Positions 8,240 through 56,600 of a DNA stretch of 64,000 nucleotides are shown here, piece after piece; the stretch's first letter is position 1; every line of letters starts with the position of its first letter. Below the pieces are notes generated by a model. It saw only the letters and a program-made list of their open reading frames with translations, was not told the DNA's origin and did no database searches. The DNA is from Candidatus Woesearchaeota archaeon (lineage in GTDB: Archaea; Nanobdellota; Nanobdellia; Woesearchaeales; 0-14-0-80-44-23). The DNA lies in assembly GCA_038874135.1 (NCBI GenBank), contig JAVZCZ010000001.1, forward strand, positions 288,968-352,967, in the 5' to 3' direction. The translations under genes and the position numbers were made by a program.

Positions 8240-8935
8240 TCACTTTTTAATATATATCTTTACATTCCCAATCTGGTAAAGTGTGCTGTTTGCTATAAAA
8301 TCTTGAAATAGTTTTTTGCCATTACACTCAAGAGGGTATTGGGGCATGACTATAAGAAGACGCGGATTCCATGAATTAAGTTCAGCATCATGATTGACTG
8401 AGGAAGAGAACATAGGGTCACCTTCATAGCATACAAATCTGATAAAGTTGAATGGCTCACGATTGGAGAGTAAGTAAATCTCTCCATTCCAACCATAAAC
8501 TAAGATTCTATCTGTTGAGTTGGTATGCTCTTTTATAAAACTGATCACTCTAGTCTGTTCTTCTGCTCCCGAAAAATCGCTGTATGGGAAGTGAAATATC
8601 TTATAATTGATGTTATAATCAGGATATTGTTTAGAAGCGAAGAAAAATGTTGTAAACGATGTGATTAGAAGTAATATTACAAGTACTGATTTTTTATATC
8701 CATTCTTTGATTGAATTAAAAACTTCAATCCCCGTGCAGAGTAAAAGGCTATTGGTGGAAGTACAATTATAAAGTAGTGCCCGAATGAAGGAGGAATAAA
8801 ACAGATTAACAAACCAAACAGTAACCAAGATAAAAACAAAAAATTTATTTGTTTAGAATCTTTGCCATTCTGTATGAGAGATAAAATTCCTAAAAGGGAT
8901 AAGAACAAAAAACATAAAGATTCAAGGATTATCAT
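8240..8935 (-). CDS. Membrane protein, GT-C-like C-terminal module (paralog of the C-terminal third of 12910..14394)
   Basis: Shares the motif IPPSFGHYF plus ...QYP(D/N)xNINxK... with the 494-aa polytopic protein at 12910..14394. About 3 TM segments followed by a soluble domain. Confidence 0.4.
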   Translation of the reverse strand: MIILESLCFLFLSLLGILSLIQNGKDSKQINFLFLSWLLFGLLICFIPPSFGHYFIIVLPPIAFYSARGLKFLIQSKNGYKKSVLVILLLITSFTTFFFASKQYPDYNINYKIFHFPYSDFSGAEEQTRVISFIKEHTNSTDRILVYGWNGEIYLLSNREPFNFIRFVCYEGDPMFSSSVNHDAELNSWNPRLLIVMPQYPLECNGKKLFQDFIANSTLYQIGNVKIYIKK

Positions 8936-8997
8936 AAAATAACCTTCTGCTATTTATTTAGAAAAATTTTTATATGAACACCTTCTTTTTTAGTATA

Positions 8998-10494
8998 ATG
9001 AAAATTTTGCTCATAAACCCGCTTTTTTATTTTAATGGACATCTGTTTAAAAAGAATTACAAAGAGATTAATCTGGGATTATTATACTTAGCATCTGTTG
9101 CGCAAAAAGAAGGTTTTTCTGTTAAAATAATAGCTTTAAATAAACTAGAGACTGAGCGCATAATAAAAAGAGAAAAACCAGACATTGTTGGAATAAGTTG
9201 TATGATAGGACAACAACGGGCCGGTCTTACTATTGCAAAAAAGGTTAAAAAAGTCAATAAGAAGATTATCGTGATAGTGGGAGGGTATTATCCTACTTTC
9301 AGGTATAAAAAGATTTTGGAACAAATACCTGAAGTAGATGTAGTAGTGATAGGTGAAGGTGAAGAATCTTTTAGTGAACTATTAAGATTAATAAATCAGA
9401 AAAAGTTTAATTATAACAATCTAAAAAAGATTAAAGGGATTGCATTTAAAGAGAATAAAAAAATTGTTTTTACAGGAAATCGCGAATTACCGAATTTAGA
9501 TAAATTGCCTTGGCCTAGTAGGACGCTTTGGAGAACAGTTAATTTCTTTGCTTCTCGAGGGTGTAGATTTCGATGTAGGTACTGTTCAATAACCAAATTT
9601 TATAGAAAAGTTGAAAGGTTTAGATCAGTAAAAAATGTTATAGAAGAATTAAAGTGGTTAGAAAAGTTGGGGGAAAAAGATGTTAGTATTAATGACGATA
9701 ATTTCTTAGATAATTTGGATTGGTTTTATAAATTTAGGATATTTTATGTAAAGCAAAGATTAAAGATAAGGAGTGGGATAATGAGTAAACTATTAAATGT
9801 TTTAAGATTAAAAAAACTTAGGTATCTAAAGGAGTGTAATATTAATGAAATCAGTATAGGTTTGCAAGGGATAGGAGATGAAGAAAATAAATTTTTTAGA
9901 ACTGGACACACACTTAAATTATTAGAAGAATTTAATAAAAAACTAATAAGAGAAAACGTTGAATTTGATGCTATTAGTATATTTCTAATAATTAATAGTG
10001 GTGTCAAGCATGAGAACGAGGAATCAATTTTTAATAAGGTAAAGAGAGTAGTAGATCTTTTACCTGAAGGGGCTATCCCTAAGAAAAATAAGCTTGCATT
10101 GTACCCGGGAACAGATATTGCTGAATATTTCATAAAAAAGGGATACTACACAGAGAGTGAAAGCGTATTTAAAGATGATGACTATTTTAATTATTCTTAT
10201 GCAGACCTCAATGAAAGAAAACTTACTGACTTGATAGCTACTGTTGATCAACTATATGAAGAAAGAGCAAAAAGAGAAAGATGGAAAAAGATACCAAAGA
10301 GAATAAGTGCAAATTTTCTTAGTACGGTGAATGCTTACTTGATTATGCTAATGCGCTCTTCTATGAGTTTATGGTTGAAGATCCGTATACTTATGTTCAT
10401 AATATATATAGTTATTAAAGAGTTTGTTTCGTTCAGAAATCCAATTAAAAATGATTATAAATTGGGAAGAATGATCAAAATTAAATATTTCTGA
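8998..10494 (+). CDS. Cobalamin (B12)-binding radical SAM protein
   Basis: MKILLINPLFYF... B12-binding N-term. Radical SAM motif FASRGCRFRCRYCS (Cx3Cx2C). Longest ORF starts at 8974. Confidence 0.7.
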   Translation: MKILLINPLFYFNGHLFKKNYKEINLGLLYLASVAQKEGFSVKIIALNKLETERIIKREKPDIVGISCMIGQQRAGLTIAKKVKKVNKKIIVIVGGYYPTFRYKKILEQIPEVDVVVIGEGEESFSELLRLINQKKFNYNNLKKIKGIAFKENKKIVFTGNRELPNLDKLPWPSRTLWRTVNFFASRGCRFRCRYCSITKFYRKVERFRSVKNVIEELKWLEKLGEKDVSINDDNFLDNLDWFYKFRIFYVKQRLKIRSGIMSKLLNVLRLKKLRYLKECNINEISIGLQGIGDEENKFFRTGHTLKLLEEFNKKLIRENVEFDAISIFLIINSGVKHENEESIFNKVKRVVDLLPEGAIPKKNKLALYPGTDIAEYFIKKGYYTESESVFKDDDYFNYSYADLNERKLTDLIATVDQLYEERAKRERWKKIPKRISANFLSTVNAYLIMLMRSSMSLWLKIRILMFIIYIVIKEFVSFRNPIKNDYKLGRMIKIKYF

Positions 10495-10530
10495 AGAAGG
10501 GTTAGATGGGACTTGGACTTTAAATAAGTG

Positions 10531-10641
10531 CTATCCCAAACTGCTACTACCGGTAACGTGATAATTACACGAGCTAGTTATAGTATCAGTCATTGCAATC
10601 TTTCTAAGAGTGGGCTTTTTCCATACAATCTTGCGTTTCAT
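10531..10641 (-). CDS. Candidate RiPP precursor peptide (36 aa), unannotated small ORF
   Basis: My own translation: MKRKIVWKKPTLRKIAMTDTITSSCNYHVTGSSSLG. It lies 95 nt downstream of the HprK-like gene on the same strand. A TATA-like element (gtttatttataaac, 10661-10674) sits about 26 nt upstream of the ATG. The WKKP leader resembles the PqqA N-terminus. Confidence 0.35.
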   Translation of the reverse strand: MKRKIVWKKPTLRKIAMTDTITSSCNYHVTGSSSLG

Positions 10642-10736
10642 TTTATAAAAAATAATTATTGTTTATTTATAAACTTTTCGCAATAGCTTGGTTTAAACTT
10701 TTATGCTATTTTTAAACATGAAGATAAGCTAACCTT

Positions 10737-11588
10737 TTAAAGATTTGATGAATTGTTTGTAACAAAATTTGTTACGAAGGATACGACAGAATTGTCTTTT
10801 TTGAATTTAAGAGTATACGCTTTAACTGAGTTAACACACGACATCACCAATTTTATGAATTTGGCCTTTGATTCAAAGCTGTAAGGTATTATTGAATTTT
10901 TTAATAAATTATTCAAAAAACTATTTATTCTTATATCTTGTATACTATTATGATTAGATTTTTTAATGAAGAATATATATGCGAGTTCTCCTTTTTTATT
11001 AGAAAAAGATTTCGCACTGCTCTGTGCAGGAGTTCCATAACAGTAAAATTTTCCATTTTTTTTAATGATTATATTAAGTTCGTCGCTAAAACAATTAAAT
11101 CCTGATTTTTTAAACAGTTTACATAGAGTACTTTTTCCTGTTCCGCAGGGACCGACAAATAGAACTACTCTTTTGCGATTGTGCAAATCAAACATAACTC
11201 CGGAGGAATGAACTAAAAAGCTATTTTTTTTCGTCAAATACATCGCCAGTATTCTTTTATTAAAAATGTTTTCAATATCTGTCTTATTAGAAAAGAAGCT
11301 AACTTTATTTTTTTCCTTTATTACGCCCCACTCGCCAGTTTTAGGTTTTATAATTAACTTAGAATTATATTCTAAAAATTTAACTGCAAAGTCTCTGCTC
11401 ACAAGTTTAGATCCTGGAGGGACACAAAAATATCTATAATTCTTCATTAAGAAGGTATAATCCTCTTTTTTATTAGTTCTAAATTGAGCAAATCTATTTA
11501 AGTTAAGATTTTTTTCAGAAACTACCTTAACTACTACTGGACCTATTTTTATTTTAAATTTTTTCATATAAATCACAGTTAATAACAA
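10737..11588 (-). CDS. HPr kinase-related P-loop protein (HprK-like, peptide-maturation associated)
   Basis: Walker A FVGPCGTGKSTLCKLF, in HprK C-terminal-domain-like context. Same strand as the rSAM/SPASM and PqqD genes, and overlaps the rSAM stop. Confidence 0.55.
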   Translation of the reverse strand: MLLTVIYMKKFKIKIGPVVVKVVSEKNLNLNRFAQFRTNKKEDYTFLMKNYRYFCVPPGSKLVSRDFAVKFLEYNSKLIIKPKTGEWGVIKEKNKVSFFSNKTDIENIFNKRILAMYLTKKNSFLVHSSGVMFDLHNRKRVVLFVGPCGTGKSTLCKLFKKSGFNCFSDELNIIIKKNGKFYCYGTPAQSSAKSFSNKKGELAYIFFIKKSNHNSIQDIRINSFLNNLLKNSIIPYSFESKAKFIKLVMSCVNSVKAYTLKFKKDNSVVSFVTNFVTNNSSNL

Positions 11589-12580
11589 TTGTTAAAAAAG
11601 AGTTTAGCAAGTTTACACAAGCGTGGAATCTTTGCTGAGTTAGATGATTTTGGATCGAAGGATTTGATTTCTTGTTCTGCAAAGCCAGGACACCAAAAAC
11701 ATATATTACGGTATTTACAACTAGCACACTTTTTGAATTTCTTTATGTAACTTTGTCTAATGTATTTTAAAGTTTTAAAAGCAATTCTCAGATTCGGAAG
11801 AGCTTTTACTCTTTTTTTTCTTAAGAGGAAGCAGAGCCCCATATTTCCTTTTGAATCAATATGAAAAGAGCGGATACCTGCACTGCAATTAAAAACTTCA
11901 GCTGAATGTTTTAATACTTTTAAGTTTATTTTGTATCTATTACAAAACAAATCAAAAAGATCGTGTGTTGATAAACTAACCTTTCTAGCATTTTTTCCGA
12001 TGATAATTGGATTAAACTCTATCCTTTTTTTTGTAAAGTTCAAACTAAGATTATCAAGTTTTTTAAAGTATTTCTTTAACTGATAAAGAGGAAGCGTTCT
12101 GAGTTCTAGATTAAATTTCTTTAAGGATTTAAGATTATTTAGTACAGTAGTGTATGCTGCTTTTCCAGTTATTTTTCTATACGTAATGTTATCGACTCCG
12201 TACAATGTGATTCTTATAAGCATAGGAGGTTTTTTCTTAAAAGTATCTAATATTTTTTTTGTAACAAAAGACCCATTTGAGTTTATAGTTATTCTATTAC
12301 CAAACAGGGTGTACGCATAATTATAAATTTCTAAAAAGTTTGGATGAAGTAGAGGTTCTCCTCCTGTTAGAATTATATTTGTAACACCGAGTCGATAGGC
12401 CTGTTTAAGAATCTTTTTAAATTTGATCACGGGTAATTCTGAGCTAGTAGCTTGTTTAATATTCTTAAAATAGCAATGTTTACATTTGAAGTTGCATTTC
12501 TGTGTTATTTCCAAATGAAGAAGATTAGGGGGAAATTCCTGATTTAAGATAGTTTCAGATTCTTTATCGTAGCTGTACAT
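11579..12580 (-). CDS. Radical SAM peptide maturase with C-terminal SPASM-type Cys cluster
   Basis: LEITQKCNFKCKHCYF (Cx3Cx2C), TGGEPLL. C-terminal CASCKYRNICFWCPGFAEQE auxiliary cluster motif. Confidence 0.7.
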   Translation of the reverse strand: MYSYDKESETILNQEFPPNLLHLEITQKCNFKCKHCYFKNIKQATSSELPVIKFKKILKQAYRLGVTNIILTGGEPLLHPNFLEIYNYAYTLFGNRITINSNGSFVTKKILDTFKKKPPMLIRITLYGVDNITYRKITGKAAYTTVLNNLKSLKKFNLELRTLPLYQLKKYFKKLDNLSLNFTKKRIEFNPIIIGKNARKVSLSTHDLFDLFCNRYKINLKVLKHSAEVFNCSAGIRSFHIDSKGNMGLCFLLRKKRVKALPNLRIAFKTLKYIRQSYIKKFKKCASCKYRNICFWCPGFAEQEIKSFDPKSSNSAKIPRLCKLAKLFFNNCY

Positions 12581-12581
12581 T

Positions 12582-12854
12582 TTAGGATTTTATTAAGATT
12601 TTTAAAGACAGTGCTTTTTTAATAAAGTTCATAAAATCTTTATCTAATTTACTTGCACTAATATCAAATTTCCGGCTTAGAATTTTTTTAGTTTTAGAAA
12701 TCCCATTTTTTACAACACCTTTTAATATGATCGATGCAGTTTTATTTAAGATAAAGTAATTAGGAGAATTTTTTCTAGTTAGTATCAGAAAGTACTGATT
12801 ATTATTAACTGAATAGAATCTGGCTTTTCCATTAAAAAAATATTTTTTTGACAT
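12582..12854 (-). CDS. PqqD-family RiPP recognition element (peptide chaperone)
   Basis: 90 aa. YFILNKTASIILKGVVKNGISKTKKILSRKFDISASKLDKDFMNFIKKAL matches the PqqD fold pattern. The radical SAM gene starts 1 nt downstream. Confidence 0.6.
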   Translation of the reverse strand: MSKKYFFNGKARFYSVNNNQYFLILTRKNSPNYFILNKTASIILKGVVKNGISKTKKILSRKFDISASKLDKDFMNFIKKALSLKILIKS

Positions 12855-12909
12855 AATTAATATTAAAAAGGCAGTAAGCTTTTTAAATATTGCTATTTTA
12901 ATTTTTAAA

Positions 12910-14394
12910 GTGAATAAGATAAATAATACAAAAGAAAGAATTGATAAAGAACTAGTTTTTCTAATAATCTTATCAATTTTTTTAAGATTTATATGGCTAT
13001 ATGCTGCTATAGAACGAGATGAAGGAATTTTTGGTTATAGTGCATTTAAACTATCGATTAATGAATTAAAAATTGTGGATAATAAAATTCCTATTGTTTA
13101 TATCATCTATTTATTAATAATGATTATACACAAATTACTTTCCTTTAATTTTCCTGTAATTATTAGTGTACGAATTGTTAATAACCTCCTATTCCTAATA
13201 GCAGTAGTTTGCTTATATAGGTTTTTTTCAGAGGAAAAAAGAGAAATTGCCTTTTTTTCTACTATCTTTTTCATAATATTCATGAATCTTCCTGTTTTTG
13301 AAGGACAACTTGCTATGACTGAATCATTGGGAATGAATTTTTTTGTGTTAGGATTAATATATATGCTTAGATATGCTAAACATTATGAACCTGCTTATTT
13401 TAGAATATCATTTTTTTTCTTTTTACTGGCCGCTTTATTAAAGTACCCTTTTTTGTTCCTTTCAGTTCATACGATTATATTTTTTATAAAAAACAGAACA
13501 GGTTTTAAAAAAGTTGCTCTTTTTTTAATTACTTATTTTATAACAGCGATTCTGATGCTTGGTTTCTATTTTATTGCATTTCCTGAAAATGTTTTATTTT
13601 TTATTATTGAAAGTATAAACGTATTAAATGAGGTCCCTGAAATTTACAGTTTTAGTAGTCTTAAGTTAGTTCTTATCGAGGGTTTCTTTTTTATAATTTT
13701 AGTTGTTTTAGGTGTTTTAGAGTATTATAAAGTAGAGAAAAAGGAGAAAATTTTTTATTTGTTTAAGAATATGTTGCTTATCTCATTGGTACTCTCATTG
13801 ATTCCTCCTTCGTTTGGTCATTATTTTCTGATAAATTCAATAGCTGTAGCATTTTTTGCTGGAGTTGGAATACTATCCTTAAAAAGGTTTAGCATTAAAT
13901 TAGTGAAGTATATCATAATTGTAATTCTTTTCCTTGCAATTATAATCTCAGTTTATTTTTCAATGTTACAATATCCTAATCTTAACATTAATTTTAAAGG
14001 AATTAACGTAGTATATAATGATTTCTTAGATTTGAAACAGCAGTTAGAAGTTTCAAAATTTTTAGAAAATCATATTAAACAAAACGAGAGCTTTGCCATG
14101 TGTGGTTTTGATGGAACTTTAGGTTGGCTGTCAGAACGGCGTATTTTTTCTGGAGTTAGAAAATTTTGTTATATTCCAAACGGAAAAGAAAATGAAAATA
14201 AAGTTTTAAAAATATTAAAAGATAGATACCTTTCAAGAATTATAATTTATGATGTAGCTAAAATTTTAAGTTGCGAACTACCAGATAATATTAAATATCT
14301 GGTTCTATTTACTAATGCATATGATGAAACTTTGTTTAAATGTACTGGTAAGATTGAGATGAAATATGATAATTTATTGATTTGCAAATGTTAA
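12910..14394 (+). CDS. Polytopic membrane protein, GT-C (PMT/ArnT-like) glycosyltransferase candidate
   Basis: About 11 predicted TM helices followed by a C-terminal soluble domain. GTG start. Shares the IPPSFGHYF module with 8240..8935. Confidence 0.45.
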   Translation: MNKINNTKERIDKELVFLIILSIFLRFIWLYAAIERDEGIFGYSAFKLSINELKIVDNKIPIVYIIYLLIMIIHKLLSFNFPVIISVRIVNNLLFLIAVVCLYRFFSEEKREIAFFSTIFFIIFMNLPVFEGQLAMTESLGMNFFVLGLIYMLRYAKHYEPAYFRISFFFFLLAALLKYPFLFLSVHTIIFFIKNRTGFKKVALFLITYFITAILMLGFYFIAFPENVLFFIIESINVLNEVPEIYSFSSLKLVLIEGFFFIILVVLGVLEYYKVEKKEKIFYLFKNMLLISLVLSLIPPSFGHYFLINSIAVAFFAGVGILSLKRFSIKLVKYIIIVILFLAIIISVYFSMLQYPNLNINFKGINVVYNDFLDLKQQLEVSKFLENHIKQNESFAMCGFDGTLGWLSERRIFSGVRKFCYIPNGKENENKVLKILKDRYLSRIIIYDVAKILSCELPDNIKYLVLFTNAYDETLFKCTGKIEMKYDNLLICKC

Positions 14395-15548
14395 GTGACA
14401 AAATGATAGTAAAGAATTACAGACGGCTAAGATTCATCATTGTGTTACTTTTTATTGAAATGATTATCATATTAATGTGGTTATCACATTATGAGATTGA
14501 GAGATATCAACAGCAACAGATTAATAAGTTGAATGAAAAGATTGAAAAATTACTCGAGTATTCAAAGCATTTAAATAACAACTGTACAGTTATTGTTTAT
14601 GAAGATAACAGTTTAATATGTGAAAAAACTGCTGGGCCATACACAATTTATGATTACATAAAATTATACGAATTCACAGGAGAACTGGATTTTTTTAATA
14701 CTGCTAAAAGATTAAGTGCTTGCTTGGAAAATTCAAATTTTTCATATATTAAAGATAGATGTGATTTAAATCTGTGGGATGGCAAAAATTATAAAATTGC
14801 CTGGATGTTTTCTGAATATTATTATTATAATCATTTGAACAAATCGGCAGGAGACATTTATAAAAAAATGTTAGAAGATTTAAAAATGAATATTTCTAAT
14901 AACCAGAATATATCTGAAAATTTAATATTAACCCAGTTTAAAATAAGGGAGCTTAGAGCATTAGAACAACAAGCCATTAATAAATGTATTATAAACAAAG
15001 AATGCAATATAACCGAGGAATATAAAAAGATAATTCAAGCATATCTAGAGATTGAAAGTATTTCTGAAACAAATTTTTTTTACATAAACCCTCAATGGTT
15101 ACAAGGAGCATGTTCTGCATTAAAAGGATTTAAAATGTATGGAGACCCTAAAAATTTTGAAACAAATATTATAATAAAAGAAATTGAAATTAGAGTATTT
15201 CACAGAATCAGTAGACTTTTAAGTGATCAAAGAATAGAAGGATATTTTAATGAAAAATTTTTTTCAAAAAAAGATGATGTAGATAGTACAATCTATACAT
15301 ACAAAGCAGTATTAGCGTTAGACGCCTGTCTTGATGCAAAATTAGCACCTTACAGCTTAAATGCAATAATTAATCAAAGTATAAAAAAAGGTTTAATCTA
15401 TTTACTAAATCAACAGGATGAAAAAGGAGGAATAATTGAAAGATATAAAGTTCCACATAAAACAGAAAGTTTAAACGATGAGATCCTTGTACTCGCTATA
15501 AAATATTTTGGTCTTCCCTACAAAAAAATAAATGAAAAAATCAAGTAA
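14382..15548 (+). CDS. Hypothetical N-terminally membrane-anchored protein
   Basis: Single N-terminal TM (FIIVLLFIEMIIILMWL), then a soluble domain with Cys pairs. 13-nt overlap with the upstream gene. No confident family assignment. Confidence 0.4.
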   Translation: MQMLSDKMIVKNYRRLRFIIVLLFIEMIIILMWLSHYEIERYQQQQINKLNEKIEKLLEYSKHLNNNCTVIVYEDNSLICEKTAGPYTIYDYIKLYEFTGELDFFNTAKRLSACLENSNFSYIKDRCDLNLWDGKNYKIAWMFSEYYYYNHLNKSAGDIYKKMLEDLKMNISNNQNISENLILTQFKIRELRALEQQAINKCIINKECNITEEYKKIIQAYLEIESISETNFFYINPQWLQGACSALKGFKMYGDPKNFETNIIIKEIEIRVFHRISRLLSDQRIEGYFNEKFFSKKDDVDSTIYTYKAVLALDACLDAKLAPYSLNAIINQSIKKGLIYLLNQQDEKGGIIERYKVPHKTESLNDEILVLAIKYFGLPYKKINEKIK

Positions 15549-15624
15549 GTAGATTAGAATGATTTTAGATAACAATTTAAATATGAAAAATATTTTATAA
15601 TCCATACCTAAAAGAGGAAAATTT

Positions 15625-17430
15625 ATGAAATTTAAAAGATCTCCAAAAGTATATCAAAATTATAAGTGTGACAATCCTAAGAATACAATAAGAAAAATTG
15701 ATAGTGGCTTTAGAAGAGTTGGTCTTGCGGTAGTGTACAGATGTAAAGAAATTAAATTAAAAAATTTAAATTATTTCACGGGTAGTGTGAGGCTTCCTTA
15801 CTTAAATCTTACAAGTAATGGGAAAGGCTGGAATTATTATTTAAGCAAAGCCAGTGCATGTGGAGAAGCTGTTGAACGATTTTCAGCTGAGATGCATTCT
15901 CCTGCATCTTATCTATTTATGAAGAGTATTATAAAAAATTTCTGGGCAGATGATATTAAATATTATTCTTCTTTTTATTTTAAATCTTTTACAAAAAATA
16001 AAGGGAATAGTAATAAAGCAAGTTATACAAATGATAAAGTCACTAATAATTGGTTGAGAGAAATTAAAAAACAGATGAACAGTGTGAGAAGGAATAGTAA
16101 AAATGTTTATGCATTCTCTCTAATTCATAAAAAATATATAAGAATTCCTGCAACAAAGGTTAAATTATTATCATTTTCGAATGGGCTAGCTGCTGGCAAT
16201 ACCCTAGAAGAAGCAATTGTTCAGGGAGCTAATGAAATTTTTGAAAGATATATTTTAGCAAGAGTTATTAATAATAAAAAGAAGATATGGCCAACGATTG
16301 ATAAAACCAGTATAAAAAGTAAGAGGATAATTAATTTTATTAAGTTATTTGAAAGTAACAATTTTGACATAATTTTAAAAGATTTTTCATTGAATGGCGA
16401 ATTTCCCTGTTATGGTGTATTATTTGTTAATAACAATTTAAAGAATACAAAAAATAAAATAAAAAAAAGGTATTTTTTTAGAAGAGTAAGAATTGCATCA
16501 GATTTTAATCCTGAGATTGCTATTCTAAGATGCTTTATGGAAGAATTACAAGGTAAAGATTTAAAAGATCTAAAAAAACATAAATATTTAGACTCAATTT
16601 GGGAGTTGGGCCTAAAGGAAAATTTAAAGTTTGTATTCAATACGGATCTATCAAACTTAAGATATTACCATTATCCTAAGAGTTTAAGACATCTAGAAGA
16701 AGGTAAAATAGAAAAGTTTGACCATTTAAAAAATAAGAAATTTAGTGATTTCTATGATGAACTAGAAGAAATTAAAAAAATAATAGAAAAACAGAAAAGA
16801 GATATCTTAATTATCGATTATACCCATCCGAAAATAAGGTTTCCTGTTGTGCGAGTAATAATTCCAGGCATGTCAGATATGGTAAATTTGTTTTCATCAA
16901 TTAGACTAACAAAAGCATCAGATGAAGAGATATATTCTCTAATGTATCCTTATTTTAAGTATATGAAAAGATTTATTTTAAATAATATGTGGGTCAAATC
17001 ACAAGAAGGAGTTAAAGAGTTTGTTGAAGCGCTCAGATCATATATTTCAAATTATCCGCTTATGGAAGAGATTCCAACTCCGGTTTTCCCATTAAAAGAA
17101 AATTCAGTTTATATGCTAATGCTATTTTCCTATTTGCGAATAAGAAAGTATGAATCAGCTCTTAATTATCTAAAAACAATAATAAAAATTTATCCAAAAA
17201 ACAAAAAACTTTTTGATAAACTGTACCGATATTTAAAAAGTGTAAAAAAAGATAATATAAACTATGAGAGAATTAAAGTAATGGTTAAAGATCTACCATT
17301 TCAGGAAAAAGTTATACTTTTAGAACCACATAGAAACCCATTAGACCCAAATTTTTTCCTAAGTAAAGAAAATGAATTTTTTACTAAATTAGTTTTGATT
17401 AGAGCAATGAAATCTTTTGAGGGGTCATAA
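15625..17430 (+). CDS. YcaO-domain protein with C-terminal TPR-like extension (E. coli YcaO-like architecture)
   Basis: ATP-binding YcaO motifs SNGKGWNYYLSKASACGEAVERFSAE and SFSNGLAAGNTLEEAIVQGANEIFERYI. 601 aa. Shine-Dalgarno-like aagagga lies upstream. Confidence 0.8.
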   Translation: MKFKRSPKVYQNYKCDNPKNTIRKIDSGFRRVGLAVVYRCKEIKLKNLNYFTGSVRLPYLNLTSNGKGWNYYLSKASACGEAVERFSAEMHSPASYLFMKSIIKNFWADDIKYYSSFYFKSFTKNKGNSNKASYTNDKVTNNWLREIKKQMNSVRRNSKNVYAFSLIHKKYIRIPATKVKLLSFSNGLAAGNTLEEAIVQGANEIFERYILARVINNKKKIWPTIDKTSIKSKRIINFIKLFESNNFDIILKDFSLNGEFPCYGVLFVNNNLKNTKNKIKKRYFFRRVRIASDFNPEIAILRCFMEELQGKDLKDLKKHKYLDSIWELGLKENLKFVFNTDLSNLRYYHYPKSLRHLEEGKIEKFDHLKNKKFSDFYDELEEIKKIIEKQKRDILIIDYTHPKIRFPVVRVIIPGMSDMVNLFSSIRLTKASDEEIYSLMYPYFKYMKRFILNNMWVKSQEGVKEFVEALRSYISNYPLMEEIPTPVFPLKENSVYMLMLFSYLRIRKYESALNYLKTIIKIYPKNKKLFDKLYRYLKSVKKDNINYERIKVMVKDLPFQEKVILLEPHRNPLDPNFFLSKENEFFTKLVLIRAMKSFEGS

Positions 17431-17571: not shown

Positions 17572-18174
17572 ATGGTTGAAATAAAGGCTTTTAACAGGTG
17601 GAGCACGCAGGGCATCGTAGTTAGTGATCCTGGCTTGAAGGATTATATTACTCTTGAGCCCAAGATTGCTCCTAGGAGTAACGGCACATATGCTGGAAAC
17701 AAGTTTTACAAGTCTAAGATTTTTATTGTTGAGCGCCTTATGAATAAGCTGATGGTTGCTGGGCATAGGGCTAAGAAGCACACTTTTACTTCTTCCCTGC
17801 TTACTGGGAAGAGCCAGAGCGCTTACAAGCTTACTGAGAGAGCTTTAGAGATTATTGAGCAGAAGACCAAGAAGAATCCCATTCAGGTTTTGGTTACTGC
17901 TATTGAGAACGCTGCTCCCCGTGAGGGCATAGTTTCTATAGAGTATGGAGGTGCCAGGTATCCTAAGGCAGTGGATGTGAGTCCTCAGCGCAGGATTGAC
18001 TTAGCGCTTAGGCTTATGGTGCAGGGTGCTTATGCTAAGACTTTTAACAATCCTAAGAAGAAGTTTGAGGAGATGCTTGCTGCTGAGATAATAGACGCTT
18101 ATAATCTCAGTCCGAACTCAAATGCGATATCTAAGAAGCTTATGACTGAGAGGCAGGCTGAAGCTTCAAGGTAA
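17572..18174 (+). CDS. rps7: 30S ribosomal protein uS7 (S7P)
   Basis: MVEIKAFNRWS...LMVAGHRAKKHTF...IENAAPREG typical archaeal S7. GC content higher than upstream block. Confidence 0.85.
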   Translation: MVEIKAFNRWSTQGIVVSDPGLKDYITLEPKIAPRSNGTYAGNKFYKSKIFIVERLMNKLMVAGHRAKKHTFTSSLLTGKSQSAYKLTERALEIIEQKTKKNPIQVLVTAIENAAPREGIVSIEYGGARYPKAVDVSPQRRIDLALRLMVQGAYAKTFNNPKKKFEEMLAAEIIDAYNLSPNSNAISKKLMTERQAEASR

Positions 18175-19158: not shown

Positions 19159-19572
19159 ATGAATGGGTTTGAGATTTTTTTAGTAAAAGGTAAGAGTATG
19201 CGTCCCTTATTAAGAGAGGGTGATAGTTGTATTGTTGTGAAAGATAAGAATTATGGTCTTTTTGATGTGGTGGCATTTCGGAGGAAAGGAAAGGTTATTA
19301 TTCACAGAATTGTAAAATTTCGCAGGGACGGCAGGGTTACTACTCACGGGGATAATTCAGCAAGTTTTTTTAGAGCACTTGCCTCTTTTGAAGTTATTAG
19401 AAGGAAGGATATTATTGGGAGAGTTGTCTGCATTGTAAGGTCTAGAAGGAAGGTTGAAGGGTTTCGTTTGAAGCTTCTTTCGTTTTTCTCACTTGTTTTG
19501 GGAATTTTTAGGATGCTTCCGTTTCTTTTTAAAAGGTATGTTTTTGGCTTTAAGCCTCGTAAGGCTCTTTAA
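19159..19572 (+). CDS. S24/S26-family serine peptidase (signal peptidase / LexA-catalytic-domain-like)
   Basis: KGKSMRPLLREGDSCIVV ... VVAFRRKGKVIIHRIV (Ser/Lys dyad pattern). Small, 137 aa. Confidence 0.5.
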   Translation: MNGFEIFLVKGKSMRPLLREGDSCIVVKDKNYGLFDVVAFRRKGKVIIHRIVKFRRDGRVTTHGDNSASFFRALASFEVIRRKDIIGRVVCIVRSRRKVEGFRLKLLSFFSLVLGIFRMLPFLFKRYVFGFKPRKAL

Positions 19573-21487
19573 GCTCAATTATGCCCGGGTTTTTCTCGTT
19601 CCTTATCTTGTTACCATATATGTATATGTACTGCCAGAATAGTCCCTGCTTCCTTTCAACCTGGACATAAAATCCGCATTCTCTGAATATCTCCTTTATC
19701 CTGTTATCATCGGAAAGCCATTCTATGTTTGGGAGTATCCAGAAGAATTTGTCATATTCTAAGAATACTATCCTGCCGTGCTTTTTGAGTCTGCTGTTTA
19801 TCTCTTTTAGAACATATTTCAGGTCTTGTATATAGCCTAAGGCTGCTACTGATACTGCAGCGTCAATTTTCTTTATTTGGCGGTGTATTGAGTCCTTCTT
19901 TTCGTGGAGCACGATTACATGTTCATGTCCAGCTCTTTTGAGTCTGCCCCGAGTTATTTTTATCTCTCTTTCAGAGATGTCTGTAGCGTATACTCTTCCT
20001 TTTTTTGTGACTGCTTCTGCCAGGTGCATTGTAAGGGTGCCTACTCCGCATCCGAACTCTAGTACTTTTTTATCCTTTATATTCCCTAGAAGTTCTAGTA
20101 TTTCGTCGCGAACTCCTCTTGGGAGAAAGTAGTTTTCAGTAAGAAATGCTAGATAAGCAAAGAAGTCGTTTACGAGGATGATTGCCTTAGGGTTGTAATA
20201 AAGTTGTAAGAGGAAGTATACTGGAATTCCTGAGGCTGTGAGTGATATGCCTAGAAGGAATAAGTTTATTGATGAAGGCATGCTTTGCAGCCAGTTCCAG
20301 ATTATAAATATGAAGAATATGCTTATGAGTATTGGTCCTATAACTCCGAAAGGGGCTTTGAACTTTCTTTCTAAGAATGGTTTTTTGAATCTCAGTATGG
20401 TTACTGCAAGTATTATTGGGATGTACATTATTAGGGAGAGAGGAACTACTAAGCTTAGGAACACTTGGTATTTTCCCATTCCTATGAAGAGCATTAGTAT
20501 TCCTACTATTGTTTGAAAGATTATTGCATTGTAGGGTGTCTTATGTGTGGGGTGTATCTTAACCATTTGGGAAAGGAAGAGTCTGTCTCTGGCGAGAGCG
20601 TATATCAATCTGGGTGTGGTGATTATGCCAACTGCTGCTGAGCCCATCATTGTGAAGTATACTCCCAAGCCTATTATTATTCTGCCAGTTTCTCCAAACA
20701 GAGATTCTGCCATCGTTGCTAATGGCGCATTAAGTCCTGAGAGGAACTGCCAGCCGAACATTCCTAGCGATACGAACGCGAGGAGTAGTCCCATTATTGC
20801 CATTGTTGCTGAGCCGAGCACTAATGCCCTGGGCACAACCCTTTCTGGCTCTTTTGTTTCTTCTGCTAGGAATGTTGCTGCTTCCCATCCAAAGTAGGTT
20901 TCTAAGAGGAAGAACATTGTTAGGAATATCGAACTGATTGGATGTGTGAAGAATGGGGAGAAGTTGGAGAGTTGAATGCGGAATGCTCCGGGTATTATTA
21001 CTGCAATTGCTACTGATATTGTTATGGCTGAAAAGGTTATGAGTGTTACTGAGCTTGCCTCAATGCCGAGGTATGTTATGTAGTTCATGAGCAGAATGAA
21101 AAGGATGCTGATTGCCATTCTGATTATGTTGTAGTAGGGCGTTGTGGGTGATATCAAGTAGTCTAGTGCAACTAGTATGAGCATCGCAAATTCTATGTTT
21201 GCAACCAGCCAGACCAGCCATCCTATTATAAATGATACTGGTCTTCCGTACGCCTGCTTGCTGTATTCATAGGCGCCTCCGGCTTTAGGGAATAGCGCAA
21301 CAAGCTCTCCGAAAAGTGAGGATATATATACTGAGATGAGTCCGAGAATTGCCCAGGCAATTATTGAAAGGTTTCCCGCATAGCCTGCTGCTATTGAGCT
21401 TCCGAAGAAGAATCCGCTTCCAACAAGTGAGCCCAGCACCAGTGCAAATACCTGCCAGAAGCCCAGCTCCTTTTTCAGTTCGCTCAT
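19550..21487 (-). CDS. Fusion protein: APC-family amino acid permease (N-terminal) + class I SAM-dependent methyltransferase (C-terminal)
   Basis: About 12 TM helices with APC signature (GSGFFFGSS...EYSKQAYG), then VLEFGCGVGTLTMHLA...VYATDISE methyltransferase motifs I/II. Confidence 0.65.
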   Translation of the reverse strand: MSELKKELGFWQVFALVLGSLVGSGFFFGSSIAAGYAGNLSIIAWAILGLISVYISSLFGELVALFPKAGGAYEYSKQAYGRPVSFIIGWLVWLVANIEFAMLILVALDYLISPTTPYYNIIRMAISILFILLMNYITYLGIEASSVTLITFSAITISVAIAVIIPGAFRIQLSNFSPFFTHPISSIFLTMFFLLETYFGWEAATFLAEETKEPERVVPRALVLGSATMAIMGLLLAFVSLGMFGWQFLSGLNAPLATMAESLFGETGRIIIGLGVYFTMMGSAAVGIITTPRLIYALARDRLFLSQMVKIHPTHKTPYNAIIFQTIVGILMLFIGMGKYQVFLSLVVPLSLIMYIPIILAVTILRFKKPFLERKFKAPFGVIGPILISIFFIFIIWNWLQSMPSSINLFLLGISLTASGIPVYFLLQLYYNPKAIILVNDFFAYLAFLTENYFLPRGVRDEILELLGNIKDKKVLEFGCGVGTLTMHLAEAVTKKGRVYATDISEREIKITRGRLKRAGHEHVIVLHEKKDSIHRQIKKIDAAVSVAALGYIQDLKYVLKEINSRLKKHGRIVFLEYDKFFWILPNIEWLSDDNRIKEIFRECGFYVQVERKQGLFWQYIYIYGNKIRNEKNPGIIELKEPYEA

Positions 21488-53511: not shown

Positions 53512-53664
53512 TTGAAAAAGAGAATAACTATAACTATTGAAGAGGAGCTCTTTGAAAGATTCAGGAGTTATTGTTCTCAAAACGCTATGAAAGTATCCTC
53601 AAAGATTGAAAAGCTTATTGAAGAATTTCTTAACAGTGAGAACAATGAGAGCTCTGTGAAATGA
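53512..53664 (+). CDS. Small ribbon-helix-helix (CopG/Arc-like) DNA-binding protein, unannotated, TTG start
   Basis: My own translation: (M)KKRITITIEEELFERFRSYCSQNAMKVSSKIEKLIEEFLNSENNESSVK. This is the beta-strand-then-helices RHH pattern. The stop overlaps the ATG of the giant ORF (ATGA). Confidence 0.4.
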   Translation: MKKRITITIEEELFERFRSYCSQNAMKVSSKIEKLIEEFLNSENNESSVK

Positions 53665-56600
53665 GAAGAAAAAAGAAAACCGGACTGGGAAAAAAGAGGT
53701 GGATTTTTGAGATTAGAAAAATTCAGCTGCTATACTTGTTAATAGCGTTCCTGCTCATAATATACGGATTTTTCCCATCTGATAAGGAGGCTTACTTCGG
53801 CTTTAAGGCATTTGCCTACACCTGCACCATTTCAAGCATAACAGAATCCTCAAATTATGCCTACGCTTCTGGAACGAATGTGTATTATGCAAATTTGGGA
53901 ACTGGAACATTCACAGTGAATGTTGATGCTGCAACTAACATTGGAGACTGCGAGGGAGGAACTGCAACTGTTTATAATGTTCAGTTTCCTAATACTGTAA
54001 GCTCCGGAGGATTAGACAGTGCAAGCCCGTGGGCTTGGAGTTATACTTTTACCTCTGGAAACACGAACAGCTATCTGTCTCAGTGGGTAACTTGCACCTA
54101 TCAATGCACATATAATGGAGATGTGTGGTATCCCAGCATGAACAGCATAAACACTTTCAATGTTTATTACGATAGTGCAGCTCCAACAATTGGCGCACCA
54201 GTAATGTATGCTGGGACAAGAACTGGAGACTCTTCAGGAAGCTACTTTAAGGGCACAATAAGCATTAGAAGCACAATCTCAGATTCTGGCTCGGGAATAC
54301 TAAATCCGAGCTGTATGGTGAGCATAAACGGGGGGGCCTGGACAAGCAGTGGAGTAACACAGGATGCTAGCTACTGCTACTATAATAACTATGCTCCTGG
54401 AGCAGATTTCAATATCAAATTTAATGTGAGCGACAACACCGGAAGGACTTCTGCCAGCAGCACTTCAACATTTTATTATGATGCAACAGCTCCGACAACT
54501 AGTGTTTCAGCTGTTCTGAAGGGCACCTCAACATCATACACTTTTAACACCTGGACCAAGAGCAACATAACTGTAAATGGGTCCTACTGTTCTGACGCTG
54601 GCTCGGGATGCTATGCTACTCATGTATGCGTTGATTCAAGCAACAGCTGCATTCCCTCATCAAATCCAATTCCAATAGATGTAACCTGCAGTGCTGGAAG
54701 CGTCTGCACGCAATATGTAAGATACAACAGCACTGACGCTCTTGCAAATTATGAAATTACTAAAAGCTCAACAATACTAATAGATATGCAAAGCCCGACA
54801 ACCACGGCAACAGCAGTAAACAGCACCGGAGCAAGCTACACCTTCAACACCTGGACAAAAAGCCCATACGTAAACGTAACACTAACATGCAACGACGCCT
54901 CAGGCTCAGGATGCTCACTCACACAATACTGCACAGACACAACAAACACCTGCACGCCAACCACAACATACACCACACCGGTACAAATAAACGCCCAGGG
55001 AATATCATACATAAGATACAACAGCACAGACAACGCCGGAAACACAGAAACAACCCAAAGCAAAACAATCAAAATAGACACAACAGCGCCTACAACAAGC
55101 ATAAACCCTAACGGACAGAGCTGCTCAGCAACCCAGCCGTCAGTAACTCTCTCGTGCTCAGACTCTTACTCCGGATGCTCAGCAACATACTACAAGATTG
55201 TAAGTGCTGCAACAACCTGTGATACAACAGGCATGAGCCTCGCAGCTGGAAACGTCCCTGTTAATTGCACACAGGGCTCATACTGCACAAATAAGATATG
55301 CACATACTCAGTAGATAATGTAGGCAACTCTGAAAGCGTCGTATCCTCAAACATTTACTATATAGACCTTGCAGGTCCAAATGCGCCAACAGGGCTTTCG
55401 CCATCTGGCTCCTGTCTTGGAACTTCAACTCCTTCATTATCTTGGAGTGCACCCTCAGATGTTGGCTGTTCCTCAGTTGCCGGCTATCAGGTTGAGATTT
55501 ATACAACTTCTGACTGCAGCGGAACTGCGCTCCAAACTGGCTATCCGAGTTCAAACAGCTGGACTCCAAGCGCTCTATCAACAGGCACATATTCGTGGAG
55601 AGTAAAGGCAAAAGATGCTCTAAACAATTGGGGTTCCTGGAGCGCCTGCGCATTAATGTATATTGATGTAAGCGCTCCGAGCACTACAATAAGTCCTAAC
55701 GGAAGAGCTTGGAACAACACTGATGTTACAGGAATAATCCTTTCAGCTTCGCAGGTGGGCTGCGGTTCTGCAGGCTCAACATATTATAAGGTTGTAAGCT
55801 CAGGAACGGTTTGCAACACTTCAGGAATGAGTACTTATGCAGCTCCATTTGACATAACCTGCCCAGCCGGTTCAGTATGCACATATAAGGTCTGCTATTA
55901 CAGCACTGACATCTATGGAAATACTGAAACCTTGAAGTCATCAAACATCTACTATATAGACAAGCAGAACCCGAATTGTTCAGTATCAGCCATATCAGAA
56001 GATTCTGGAAATTCGTATCAGTATGTTTCTGGAACCACAATATATTACAGCAATACCGACTCGCGCGCTGGAAGCTTCACTGTTAATGTTTCTGCTTCAG
56101 ACGGCTCTGGCTCTGGAATTGCTAAGGTTTATTTCCCCGAAACTGTCTCATCTGGCTTTAATGATACTGCCGCACCATACTCTCTACAGTACAGCTGGGA
56201 TTCCTCAGACACTTATTCTGGAACTGCCACGATATATGTATATGACAGTGTAAACAATTACAATAGCTGTACATTCACAATAGTTAGAGACATAAGTGCT
56301 CCATCAGGGGGTAGCATAAACTATTTCAGCGGAGTTACAAATGTTGTAAATCAGCAAATCAATGTTAGCTCCGGTTCTGATTCAGAATCTGGAGTATACA
56401 CTGCACAGCTTTACAGGCAGTCCGCAGTCCTCAACATTGGAGATTACACTTGCGGTGCTTATGGAGCCCTTACAGCAGTAGGTAACAGCTCTCCAATTAA
56501 GGATTATGTCCTTGACACTTTAAGTTCGGGTTACTGCTACAAGTACATCTATAATGTTAGCGATAATGTCGGTAATGTTGTGAGCTACACTTCAAGCAAT

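What the first reader, a model, noticed from the sequence alone, without database searches (positions are those of the whole stretch)
15625..17430. Stand-alone YcaO-domain protein with TPR-like C-terminus next to the RiPP-like genes and directly upstream of uS7
Both signature YcaO ATP-binding motifs are clear. No TfuA-like or E1-like partner, and no McrA, is visible in the window, and the genome does not look methanogenic. The 601-aa size and C-terminal helical repeats resemble E. coli-type YcaO, whose function is unresolved. E. coli YcaO has been implicated in RimO-dependent methylthiolation of ribosomal protein S12. Here the YcaO gene lies near a ribosomal protein gene (uS7) and about 3 kb from an rSAM/PqqD peptide-modification operon. 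It may thioamidate or cyclodehydrate a peptide or ribosomal protein in this archaeon.
Basis: partly seen in the sequence, partly recalled or inferred. Interest (0 to 1): 0.7.

Follow-up and report, generated by a model that had tools for sequence, protein, structure and literature searches.

The report
Peptide-modifying YcaO enzyme in DPANN archaeon
The gene is a real, intact YcaO enzyme built like the E. coli one, but its relatives and neighbours point to it modifying a small peptide natural product together with radical-SAM enzymes, not a ribosomal protein.

Summary
ORF 15625-17430 (+) encodes a 601-aa protein with a full YcaO domain (PF02624, E 9.5e-44), both ATP/Mg motifs and a helical C-terminal domain. 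The window has no TfuA, E1-like, nitroreductase or MCR gene. The host is a Candidatus Aenigmatarchaeota MAG.

- E. coli YcaO is no longer unresolved: it thioamidates uL16-Met82 (PMC13063428) and is very acidic (pI 4.4). This protein shares that architecture, and its C-terminal domain is homologous through intermediates. But it scores 91 bits against a 700-bit cut-off and has pI 9.8.
- It is not functionally alone. In 13 of 20 other contexts with usable flanks, ~600-aa relatives lie within 7 kb of a B12-radical-SAM gene homologous to window 8974-10494, often with rSAM/SPASM enzymes, cysteine proteases and small ORFs.
- Window 12854-10531 (-) is a PqqD-rSAM/SPASM-ScmC cassette. It ends in a 36-aa ORF carrying the leader motif seen in other such cassettes.
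- The block 8974-17430 has 23-30% GC and uS7 has 44%, so the uS7 adjacency looks like an island edge.

Best reading: an ATP-dependent backbone-amide-activating enzyme of a hybrid RiPP cluster. The chemistry (thioamide or azoline) is unresolved. This is a new variant of a known kind, of moderate interest.

The parts
15625..17430 (+). YcaO gene, 601 aa. It has the N-terminal unit, the YcaO ATP-grasp-like core, and a C-terminal helical domain.
15850..15885 (+). ATP/Mg-binding motif 1, ASACGEAVERFS (residues 76-87).
   Evidence: S77, E81, E84 and R85 are invariant in 23 relatives. The family profile aligns this stretch to ASALGEYFERLS of E. coli YcaO.
16177..16251 (+). ATP/Mg-binding motif 2, SNGLAAGNTLEEAIVQGANEIFERY (residues 185-209).
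   Evidence: It aligns to SNGMSAGNTRNEARVQGLSEVFERY of 4q84. G187, A189, G191, N192, E196, A197 and E204 are invariant.
16921..17421 (+). C-terminal all-helical, TPR-like domain (residues 433-599).
8974..10494 (+). B12-binding radical SAM enzyme, 506 aa, a likely C-methyltransferase. It is the conserved partner of this YcaO family.
   Evidence: PF02310 E 1e-23 and PF04055 E 2.5e-15. It is 32% identical (E 2e-64) to the B12-rSAM beside YcaO homologue P0004. Homologues lie within 7 kb of the YcaO in 13 other contexts.
10531..10641 (-). Candidate 36-aa precursor peptide MKRKIVWKKPTLRKIAMTDTITSSCNYHVTGSSSLG.
   Evidence: It is the last ORF of the PqqD-rSAM-ScmC strand and lies 37 bp from the 3' end of the convergent B12-rSAM gene. 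It matches the leader motif [WY]xKPx[LVF]xx[ILV] derived from small ORFs in L094, L095 and L099. That motif occurs once in all six frames of the window and in 0.4% of shuffles of the spacer. It has no database family match.
10737..11588 (-). ScmC-like / HPr-kinase-like P-loop protein, 283 aa. The NCBI model starts at the ATG at 11567, giving 276 aa.
   Evidence: BLASTP to Pfam-PF27840 ScmC proteins of L097 (28% over 162 aa, E 2.6e-15) and L094 (E 1.4e-9). Weak TIGR04352 HprK_rel_A hit at 27.9 bits. No other relative was found in 5.8 billion proteins.
11579..12580 (-). Radical SAM/SPASM-type peptide maturase, 333 aa.
   Evidence: PF04055 E 1.6e-22. The best NCBIfam hits are SPASM maturases, all below cut-off. 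It is 27-29% identical (E 1e-33 to 1e-37) to the rSAM of PqqD-rSAM-ScmC cassettes.
12582..12854 (-). PqqD-like peptide-binding (RRE) protein, 90 aa.
   Evidence: PF05402 E 0.0019, below cut-off. BLASTP E 4e-4 to the Pfam-annotated PqqD of L097. It has the same position and order as in L094-L099.
12910..15548 (+). Two overlapping genes directly upstream of ycaO: a GT-C/PMT_2-like membrane protein (494 aa) and a membrane-anchored protein of unknown family (388 aa). Whether they belong to the cluster is uncertain.
   Evidence: Weak PMT_2 hit for the first and no family for the second. No homologue occurs in any other YcaO locus. They share the low GC of the block.

Best explanation
The gene encodes an active YcaO, an enzyme that uses ATP to activate a backbone amide of a peptide. 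It belongs to a roughly 600-aa family with E. coli-type architecture that works in peptide natural-product (RiPP) clusters, not on ribosomal proteins.

In this archaeon it is part of an AT-rich, probably horizontally acquired, 8.5-kb block at 8974-17430. [quoted passage not shown] It further holds a PqqD-rSAM/SPASM-ScmC cassette and a 36-aa precursor.

Proposed course of events (inferred):
1. PqqD binds the WKKPTLRKI leader of the precursor.
2. The rSAM/SPASM enzyme and the kinase-like ScmC modify the Ser/Thr/Cys-rich core.
3. The B12-rSAM enzyme methylates it.
4. The YcaO phosphorylates a backbone hemiorthoamide and releases phosphate.

The YcaO product would be either a thioamide, with environmental sulfide as nucleophile and no TfuA needed, or an azoline from the Cys/Ser/Thr side chains. 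I lean slightly to the thioamide. The two closest characterised relatives, E. coli YcaO and the methanogen McrA YcaO, both form thioamides. The protein also has no azoline-type partner and no C-terminal PxPxP tail.

Shown here: the domain, intact motifs, architecture, conserved gene neighbourhoods, the leader motif and the GC discontinuity. Inferred: that all these genes act on one peptide, and which chemistry is used.
For: - Domain and catalytic residues are intact.
- A B12-rSAM homologous to window 8974-10494 lies within 7 kb of the YcaO in L006/7, L011-L015, L017-L021, L062 and L079.
- The closest homologue, P0002 (39% identity), sits in an operon of small ORF, rSAM, YcaO. P0016 sits in a one-strand operon with a homologous rSAM (32% identity, E 2e-42) and a small ORF sharing a CSxxCxxxC motif.
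- P0004 sits with a second YcaO, a nitroreductase and a Cys/Gly-rich 117-aa ORF.
- Conserved 21-29-aa ORFs flank the Thermoplasmatales-type clusters.
- The window's PqqD-rSAM-ScmC order is conserved in L094-L099. The 36-aa ORF carries the leader motif found in those loci, which is unique in the window.
- GC of the block is 0.23-0.30, against 0.44 for uS7.
- Rice et al. note that the few non-acidic YcaOs grouping with E. coli YcaO sit in contexts that 'strongly suggest' RiPP biosynthesis (PMC13063428).
Against: - ycaO is 5 kb from the candidate precursor. Two apparently unrelated membrane-protein genes lie between them, and ycaO is on the opposite strand to the cassette.
- PqqD-rSAM-ScmC cassettes occur elsewhere without any YcaO, so the two modules may be independent neighbours.
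- The small peptides conserved beside Thermoplasmatales homologues have no counterpart in the window.
- Asgard and Bathyarchaeia members of the family have no rSAM neighbour and variable contexts.
- Nothing in the sequence discriminates thioamide from azoline chemistry.
- No sulfur-transfer gene lies in the block.
- The 36-aa ORF has no homologue by sequence search, and an ATG ORF of that length arises in 17% of shuffles of the spacer.
Confidence: 0.58

Rival explanations
1. It is a housekeeping protein-modifying YcaO. Like E. coli YcaO on uL16 or the methanogen enzyme on McrA, it would thioamidate a folded protein, perhaps a ribosomal protein such as the adjacent uS7. The rSAM genes nearby would be unrelated.
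For: It has E. coli-type architecture, including the C-terminal domain that in E. coli mediates dimerisation and perhaps uL16 binding. It has no TfuA or E1 partner. It lies directly upstream of uS7. A Heimdallarchaeota homologue lies between uS10 and uL3-uL4-uL23-uL2. Asgard and Bathyarchaeia homologues lack obvious precursor or rSAM neighbours.
Against: pI is 9.79, and most of the family lies at 6-9.5. The uL16-modifying group is marked by pI near 4.4, complementary to a basic substrate. The NF040716 score is 91 against 700 bits. The family is patchily distributed and divergent (at most 39% identity to the window protein), unlike enzymes tied to a static, conserved substrate. A GC step at the ycaO/uS7 boundary suggests the adjacency is an insertion edge. 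Ribosomal-gene adjacency is seen in only 2 of the 21 contexts with usable flanks.
Confidence: 0.12
2. The YcaO and the B12-rSAM form their own two-enzyme module. It would act on a peptide that is not the 36-aa ORF: either a very small ORF that was missed or one encoded elsewhere. The PqqD-rSAM-ScmC cassette with its 36-aa precursor would be a separate, merely adjacent RiPP system.
For: The YcaO + B12-rSAM pairing recurs without a PqqD/ScmC cassette. PqqD-rSAM-ScmC recurs without a YcaO. The YcaO family elsewhere is associated with other kinds of small ORF.
Against: No other credible small ORF was found in the block. The 36-aa ORF lies 37 bp from the end of the B12-rSAM gene. L012 combines rSAM/SPASM, YcaO and B12-rSAM in one locus, and L094 combines the cassette with a B12-rSAM. 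The whole block shares one composition.
Confidence: 0.2
3. The gene is a decaying or functionless remnant of a transferred cluster in a reduced DPANN genome.
For: It lies in an AT-rich block of foreign composition. Accessory genes have almost no relatives. The neighbouring 231-aa ORF looks like a truncated paralogue.
Against: The 601-codon frame is uninterrupted in DNA with about 27% GC, where stop codons are frequent. All invariant catalytic residues are kept. A ribosome-binding site is present. The AF2 model is confident over the core.
Confidence: 0.05

Closest known systems
E. coli YcaO (PDB 4Q84-4Q86), the uL16-Met82 backbone thioamidase
   Different: Identity is only 17-20%. NF040716 scores 91 bits against a 700-bit cut-off. 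Direct sequence searches match the core only. pI is 9.8 against 4.4. The host is archaeal and the gene sits in a RiPP-like neighbourhood, whereas E. coli ycaO has no nearby small ORF.
Methanogen McrA-glycine thioamidation YcaO (MJ1094, PDB 6PE3; M. kandleri, PDB 6CI7)
   Different: Those enzymes are about 375-385 aa with no C-terminal domain. TIGR03266 scores 89 against a 365-bit cut-off. No MCR gene is in the window, and the host phylum is not methanogenic.
Bottromycin-type partner-less RiPP YcaOs working with B12-rSAM methyltransferases
   Same: In both, a YcaO without an E1/RRE partner is encoded with B12-dependent radical SAM enzyme(s) and acts on a very small peptide. The small ORFs beside Thermoplasmatales homologues also look 'core first, tail after', like the bottromycin follower peptide. 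This comparison rests on my own knowledge of the bottromycin pathway.
   Different: No sequence comparison with bottromycin enzymes was possible here. The window's candidate precursor has an N-terminal leader, not a follower. No amidohydrolase, P450 or aminopeptidase gene is present.
Azoline-forming TOMM/cyanobactin cyclodehydratases (LynD, TruD, McbD, SagD)
   Different: There is no fused or separate E1-like or Ocin-ThiF-like partner and no dehydrogenase in the window. TIGR03604 scores 69.5 against a 219-bit cut-off. The C-terminus is ...AMKSFEGS, not a PxPxP tail.
SynChlorMet-type cassette (PqqD-like protein, radical SAM/SPASM, ScmC)
   Same: Window 12854-10737 (-) has the same three genes in the same order, with pairwise homology. 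The small ORF shares the leader motif.
   Different: This concerns the neighbours, not the YcaO. The loci examined with this cassette have no YcaO. NCBIfam ScmE/ScmF scores are far below cut-off (58 and 63 bits against 400). No paper on the cassette was found in the library.

Membership tests
YcaO superfamily (PF02624 / TIGR00702) | Full-length match to the YcaO domain model above its curated cut-off. | tested here: met
   PF02624 scores 150.5 bits against 25.7, covering profile positions 1-325 of 325. TIGR00702 scores 104.7 against 75.65.
YcaO superfamily (PF02624 / TIGR00702) | Conserved ATP/Mg-binding residues (Sx3Ex2ER and the Ex7Ex2ER region). | tested here: met
   S77, E81, E84, R85, E196, E204, E207 and R208 are present and invariant or nearly so in 23 relatives. 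They align to the E. coli YcaO motifs.
E. coli-type uL16-thioamidating YcaO (NF040716 'YcaO_for_S12') | Score at or above the equivalog cut-off of 700 bits. | tested here: not met
   91.2 bits, matching only profile positions 53-390 of 571. None of the 23 family members comes near the cut-off (best E 3.5e-37).
E. coli-type uL16-thioamidating YcaO (NF040716 'YcaO_for_S12') | C-terminal TPR-like domain of about 150 residues after the YcaO core. | tested here: met
   [not shown]
E. coli-type uL16-thioamidating YcaO (NF040716 'YcaO_for_S12') | Strongly acidic protein (pI about 4.4), complementary to basic uL16 (PMC13063428). | tested here: not met
   Computed pI is 9.79. The family ranges from 6.0 to 9.8.
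E. coli-type uL16-thioamidating YcaO (NF040716 'YcaO_for_S12') | Thioamide on a ribosomal protein of the host. | not testable with these tools
   This needs mass spectrometry or high-resolution cryo-EM of the organism's ribosomes.
TfuA-associated thioamide-forming YcaO / methanogenesis marker 1 (TIGR03266) | Score at or above 365 bits, an adjacent TfuA gene (where present), and an McrA substrate. | tested here: not met
   89.2 bits. The window has no TfuA and no MCR subunit among the 50 ORFs scanned. The rest of the genome could not be searched.
Azoline-forming TOMM cyclodehydratase (TIGR03604 SagD family) | Score at or above 219 bits, an E1-like or Ocin-ThiF-like partner or fusion, and a C-terminal PxPxP motif. 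| tested here: not met
   69.5 bits. No ThiF/E1 domain is in the window. The C-terminus is ...RAMKSFEGS.
RiPP biosynthetic gene cluster (generic) | A small precursor ORF next to tailoring enzymes, with a recognition element. | tested here: inconclusive
   A 36-aa ORF with a cassette-type leader motif, a PqqD-like protein, an rSAM/SPASM enzyme, a B12-rSAM enzyme and the YcaO all lie within 8.5 kb. Expression and modification of the peptide are untested. There is no protease or exporter gene in the block.
SynChlorMet-type cassette (for the neighbouring operon) | PqqD-like, rSAM/SPASM and ScmC genes in tandem. | tested here: met
   The order and the pairwise homology match L094-L099, where the products carry Pfam PqqD, Radical_SAM and ScmC. 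The curated NCBIfam ScmE/ScmF cut-offs are not reached, so this is a relative, not an equivalog.

The most novel reading that the evidence does not exclude
The roughly 600-aa, E. coli-architecture YcaO family may define one or more undescribed RiPP classes of anaerobic archaea and bacteria. In them a partner-less YcaO, using its C-terminal helical domain instead of an E1/RRE partner, would work with a B12-rSAM methyltransferase on very small peptides. The window would then be a DPANN hybrid that couples this pair to a PqqD-rSAM-ScmC cassette. The result would be a peptide that is backbone-modified, C-methylated and carries a radical-SAM-installed modification, made by an organism with a contig of about 0.9 Mb.
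Probability: 0.3. Interest if true: 0.65.

Novelty: new variant of a known kind. Interest (0 to 1): 0.5.

Why it matters
E. coli-type YcaO was long an orphan and has just been assigned to ribosomal protein thioamidation. This locus and its relatives show that the same architecture is used, in basic rather than acidic versions, inside peptide natural-product clusters across Thermoplasmatales, DPANN, Asgard-related and several bacterial lineages. That gives a simple rule, pI plus neighbourhood, for telling protein-modifying from peptide-modifying members.

It also points to a recurrent and apparently uncharacterised YcaO + B12-rSAM pairing, with candidate tiny precursors that could be tested by heterologous expression. 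A multi-enzyme RiPP cluster in a DPANN archaeon with a small genome is unusual. It would bear on how these episymbionts interact with hosts or competitors.

Tried and rejected
- Membership in characterised clades was tested with curated NCBIfam models and rejected for E. coli-type, methanogen-type, SagD-type and OsmC-YcaO.
- A homologue of the conserved Thermoplasmatales small peptides ((S)YGKFLS / HWGPFLKK) was sought in the window by regex and by a six-frame HMM search. None was found.
- The ScmC-like protein was searched against 5.8 billion proteins. It found only itself.
- The candidate precursors were scanned against NCBIfam and Pfam at E up to 10. The only hit was a weak heterocycloanthracin-like match for the L006 ORF.
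- The bacterial promoter/terminator scan was uninformative for this AT-rich archaeal DNA: 46 sites found against 54 expected.
- The sister group of about 436-aa Desulfobacterales YcaOs was only glanced at. Two upstream ORFs in L085 are not TfuA, and one of them is PNPOx-like. That group's function stays open.
- A literature search for SynChlorMet/ScmC returned nothing relevant.
- Metal-transport neighbours (NikR, CbiM, FecCD, VIT1) beside three stand-alone archaeal homologues were considered as a clue. I dropped this because the genes are not homologous across loci and are absent from the window.
- A search of the rest of the genome for TfuA was not possible. The genome is not among the species representatives scanned and only the window is held.
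- I did not build a formal phylogeny with characterised reference sequences. Placement rests on HMM scores, profile comparisons and structure.
Full report
**1. What is there**

ORF 15625..17430 (+) is 601 codons long. It starts at an ATG preceded by aaGAGGaaa. Pfam YcaO (PF02624) matches end to end at E 9.5e-44 over residues 65-417.

Both nucleotide/Mg motifs are present: ASACGEAVERFS at residues 76-87 and SNGLAAGNTLEEAIVQGANEIFERY at 185-209. They align with those of E. coli YcaO. Their key residues are invariant in an alignment of 23 relatives of about 600 aa (A1).

An AlphaFold2 model built on that alignment has mean pLDDT 78.7 and pTM 0.83. It shows the YcaO core followed by an all-helical domain at residues 433-599.

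An identical protein is deposited from a Candidatus Aenigmatarchaeota MAG, on a contig of 909,956 bp. That phylum belongs to the DPANN group. The rest of the window carries ordinary archaeal housekeeping genes and surface-glycosylation genes. Among 50 ORFs scanned there is no TfuA, ThiF/E1-like, nitroreductase or MCR subunit.

**2. Relation to characterised YcaOs**

Only the generic domain model TIGR00702 passes its cut-off. The specific models all fail:

| Model | Score (bits) | Cut-off (bits) |
|---|---|---|
| E. coli-type, NF040716 | 91 | 700 |
| Methanogen McrA-type, TIGR03266 | 89 | 365 |
| SagD-type, TIGR03604 | 69.5 | 219 |

The same holds for all 23 family members.

A profile of the family scores E. 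coli YcaO (118 bits) and M. jannaschii MJ1094 (116 bits) equally. Both score above TruD, MusD and LynD. Only the core is matched.

A search of 1.84 billion representative proteins with the family profile found a second tier of about 600-aa proteins. These match the E. coli-type model over its whole length at 150-312 bits. hhalign of the window family against 17 of them (A2) gives probability 100 and E 2e-71, reaching window residue 534. The A2 profile covers E. coli YcaO residues 9-546. So the architecture, C-terminal domain included, is homologous to that of E. coli YcaO. The protein is nevertheless not a member of that orthologous group.

**3. The state of knowledge has moved**

E. coli YcaO has now been shown to install the backbone thioamide at Met82 of ribosomal protein uL16. 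It does so without TfuA, and it recognises the folded, basic protein through an acidic surface (pI 4.4). The earlier S12/RimO connection is regarded as marginal (PMC13063428).

That paper also notes that the few non-acidic YcaOs grouping with the E. coli enzyme have genomic contexts suggesting RiPP biosynthesis. The window protein has a computed pI of 9.79, and its relatives range from 6.0 to 9.5. The hallmark of a ribosomal-protein-modifying enzyme is therefore missing.

**4. What the relatives sit next to**

Twenty other contexts holding a family member of about 600 aa with usable flanks were examined.

- **B12-rSAM.** In L006/7, L011, L012, L013, L014, L015, L017, L018, L019, L020, L021, L062 and L079, a B12-binding radical SAM gene lies within 7 kb of the YcaO. 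It is homologous to window 8974-10494. The window enzyme is 32% identical (E 2e-64) to that of L006.
- **Closest homologue.** P0002 (39% identity) lies in an operon of small ORF, rSAM, YcaO.
- **P0016.** It lies in a one-strand operon with a homologous rSAM (32% identity, E 2e-42), an ABC exporter and a small ORF. That ORF shares a CSxxCxxxC motif with the ORF of P0002's locus.
- **P0004.** It lies with a second YcaO, a nitroreductase-type gene and a 117-aa ORF with a Cys/Gly-rich tail.
- **P0010.** It lies between an rSAM/SPASM gene and a B12-rSAM gene.
- **Thermoplasmatales-type loci.** These add transglutaminase-core proteins, C25 or C14 cysteine proteases and MiaB/RimO-like methylthiotransferases. 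They also carry conserved 21-29-aa ORFs such as MPSFTASYGKFLSLNKEDEEEE and MVINIPDAITIHWGPFLKKFRKKE.
- **Asgard and Bathyarchaeia members.** They show none of this and have variable neighbours.

Overall the family is predominantly embedded in RiPP-like clusters. Its most constant partner is present in the window.

**5. The window's own neighbourhood**

On the minus strand, three genes run head to tail: PqqD-like (12854-12582), rSAM/SPASM (12580-11579) and a P-loop, HPr-kinase-like protein (11588-10737). Relatives of the rSAM occur in the same three-gene order in L094-L099, where the third product carries Pfam ScmC. The window proteins are homologous to all three, with E 4e-4, about 1e-35 and 2.6e-15 respectively.

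Small ORFs in those loci share a leader, [WY]xKPx[LVF]xx[ILV]: WKKPVVAEL, YVKPTFEYI and YQKPLLEKV. The 242-bp spacer after the ScmC-like gene in the window holds a 36-aa ORF at 10641-10531 (-). Its sequence is MKRKIVWKKPTLRKIAMTDTITSSCNYHVTGSSSLG, and it matches that motif.

The motif occurs only there in all six frames of the 64-kb window, and in 0.4% of shuffles of the spacer. An ATG ORF of that length alone appears in 17% of shuffles. The ORF is also GC-richer than its surroundings (0.39 against 0.27-0.30). It ends 37 bp from the end of the convergent B12-rSAM gene. I take it as a probable precursor peptide.

**6. Composition and the uS7 question**

Genes from 8974 to 17430 have 23-30% GC (GC3 19-25%). 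uS7 has 44% (GC3 48%), and the genes beyond it have 36-42%. The step falls exactly between ycaO and uS7.

The block to the left continues into low-GC glycosylation genes. uS7 stands alone here, without uS12 or EF-2. One other lineage, Heimdallarchaeota, has its homologue between uS10 and uL3. That makes 2 of the 21 contexts, the window included. With the basic pI, this is not enough to support a ribosomal substrate.

**7. Most likely function**

The enzyme is an ATP-dependent backbone-amide activator of a RiPP pathway. The steps shown and inferred are set out under the best explanation.

On chemistry, the two nearest characterised relatives both make thioamides and can do so without TfuA. The family lives mostly in anaerobes. 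One subgroup of the small peptides conserved beside its relatives has no conserved Cys, Ser or Thr in the conserved motif (HWGPFLKK). The enzyme has neither an E1-type partner nor a PxPxP tail. These points tilt me towards thioamidation.

The Ser/Thr/Cys-rich core of the window peptide and the azole-type cluster around P0004 keep azoline formation a serious alternative. I put about 0.58 on 'RiPP-cluster YcaO acting with the B12-rSAM on a small peptide'. Within that, I give roughly 45% to thioamide, 35% to azoline and 20% to other chemistry.

**8. Limits**

- There are no expression or product data.
- The link between the YcaO and the 36-aa peptide rests on proximity and on combinations seen in other loci.
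- Two genes of unknown relevance, a GT-C-like membrane protein and a 388-aa orphan, lie directly upstream of ycaO and may be co-transcribed with it.
- The rest of the genome could not be searched for TfuA.
- Placement among YcaO clades rests on model scores, profile comparisons and structure, not on a tree.

Noticed in passing
L011 5300-5365(-); L014 2110-2199(+) and 3637-3711(+); L015 11821-11886(-); L017 9756-9836(-); L018 3742-3822(+); L019 13280-13354(-) and 13532-13606(-); L021 13315-13389(-): A family of conserved 21-29-aa ORFs lies beside YcaO, B12-rSAM, transglutaminase and C25 protease genes in Thermoplasmatales-type and some bacterial MAGs. Each has a conserved N-terminal stretch, (S)YGKFLS(L/I) or HWGPFLKK, followed by a run of Glu or Lys. 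They look like 'core first, tail after' precursor peptides, and no database family matches them.
   Followed up: partly
L002, L003, L042 (match at about 10001-11797): In Heimdallarchaeota the homologous YcaO (P0018) sits between a divergent uS10 gene and uL3-uL4-uL23-uL2. This is the only other ribosomal-gene neighbourhood found, and it comes from a single lineage.
   Followed up: partly
L017 8400-9680(-), L018 1085-2317(+), L079 1466-2734(-): MiaB/RimO-like methylthiotransferases (UPF0004 + radical SAM, no TRAM hit) are encoded next to the YcaO in three loci. This is a curious echo of the old YcaO-RimO association in E. coli.
   Followed up: partly
L013 7288-9693(+); L004/L005 11924-12904(+); L014, L019, L020, L021 (449-495-aa genes): Clan-CD cysteine proteases recur next to family members: a caspase-like C14 in L013 (and weakly in L004/L005), and gingipain-like C25 in L014, L019, L020 and L021. 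They may be leader or follower peptidases.
   Followed up: partly
window 8240-8935(-) and 12910-14394(+): The 231-aa ORF is a paralogue of the C-terminal half of the 494-aa GT-C/PMT_2-like membrane protein; both share the stretch IPPSFGHYF. It may be a truncated duplicate inside the low-GC block.
   Followed up: no
window 19550-21487(-): A 645-aa protein fuses an amino-acid permease (12-TM APC type) to a C-terminal SAM-dependent methyltransferase domain, which is an unusual combination.
   Followed up: no
window 53661-62870(+): A 3069-aa ORF has Ig-like domains in its first 1000 residues. It is probably a giant surface protein of the kind common in DPANN archaea.
   Followed up: no
window 17572-18174(+): The uS7 gene is isolated. 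There is no uS12 upstream and no EF-2 downstream; a GT2 glycosyltransferase gene lies on the other strand instead. The usual archaeal uS12-uS7-EF2 cluster is therefore broken here.
   Followed up: no
[not shown]
   Followed up: no
L015 and L017: Both loci come from the same Thermoplasmatales MAG (isolate SRP332253_co2_223). One genome therefore carries two paralogous YcaO/B12-rSAM/transglutaminase clusters, each with its own small ORF.
   Followed up: no
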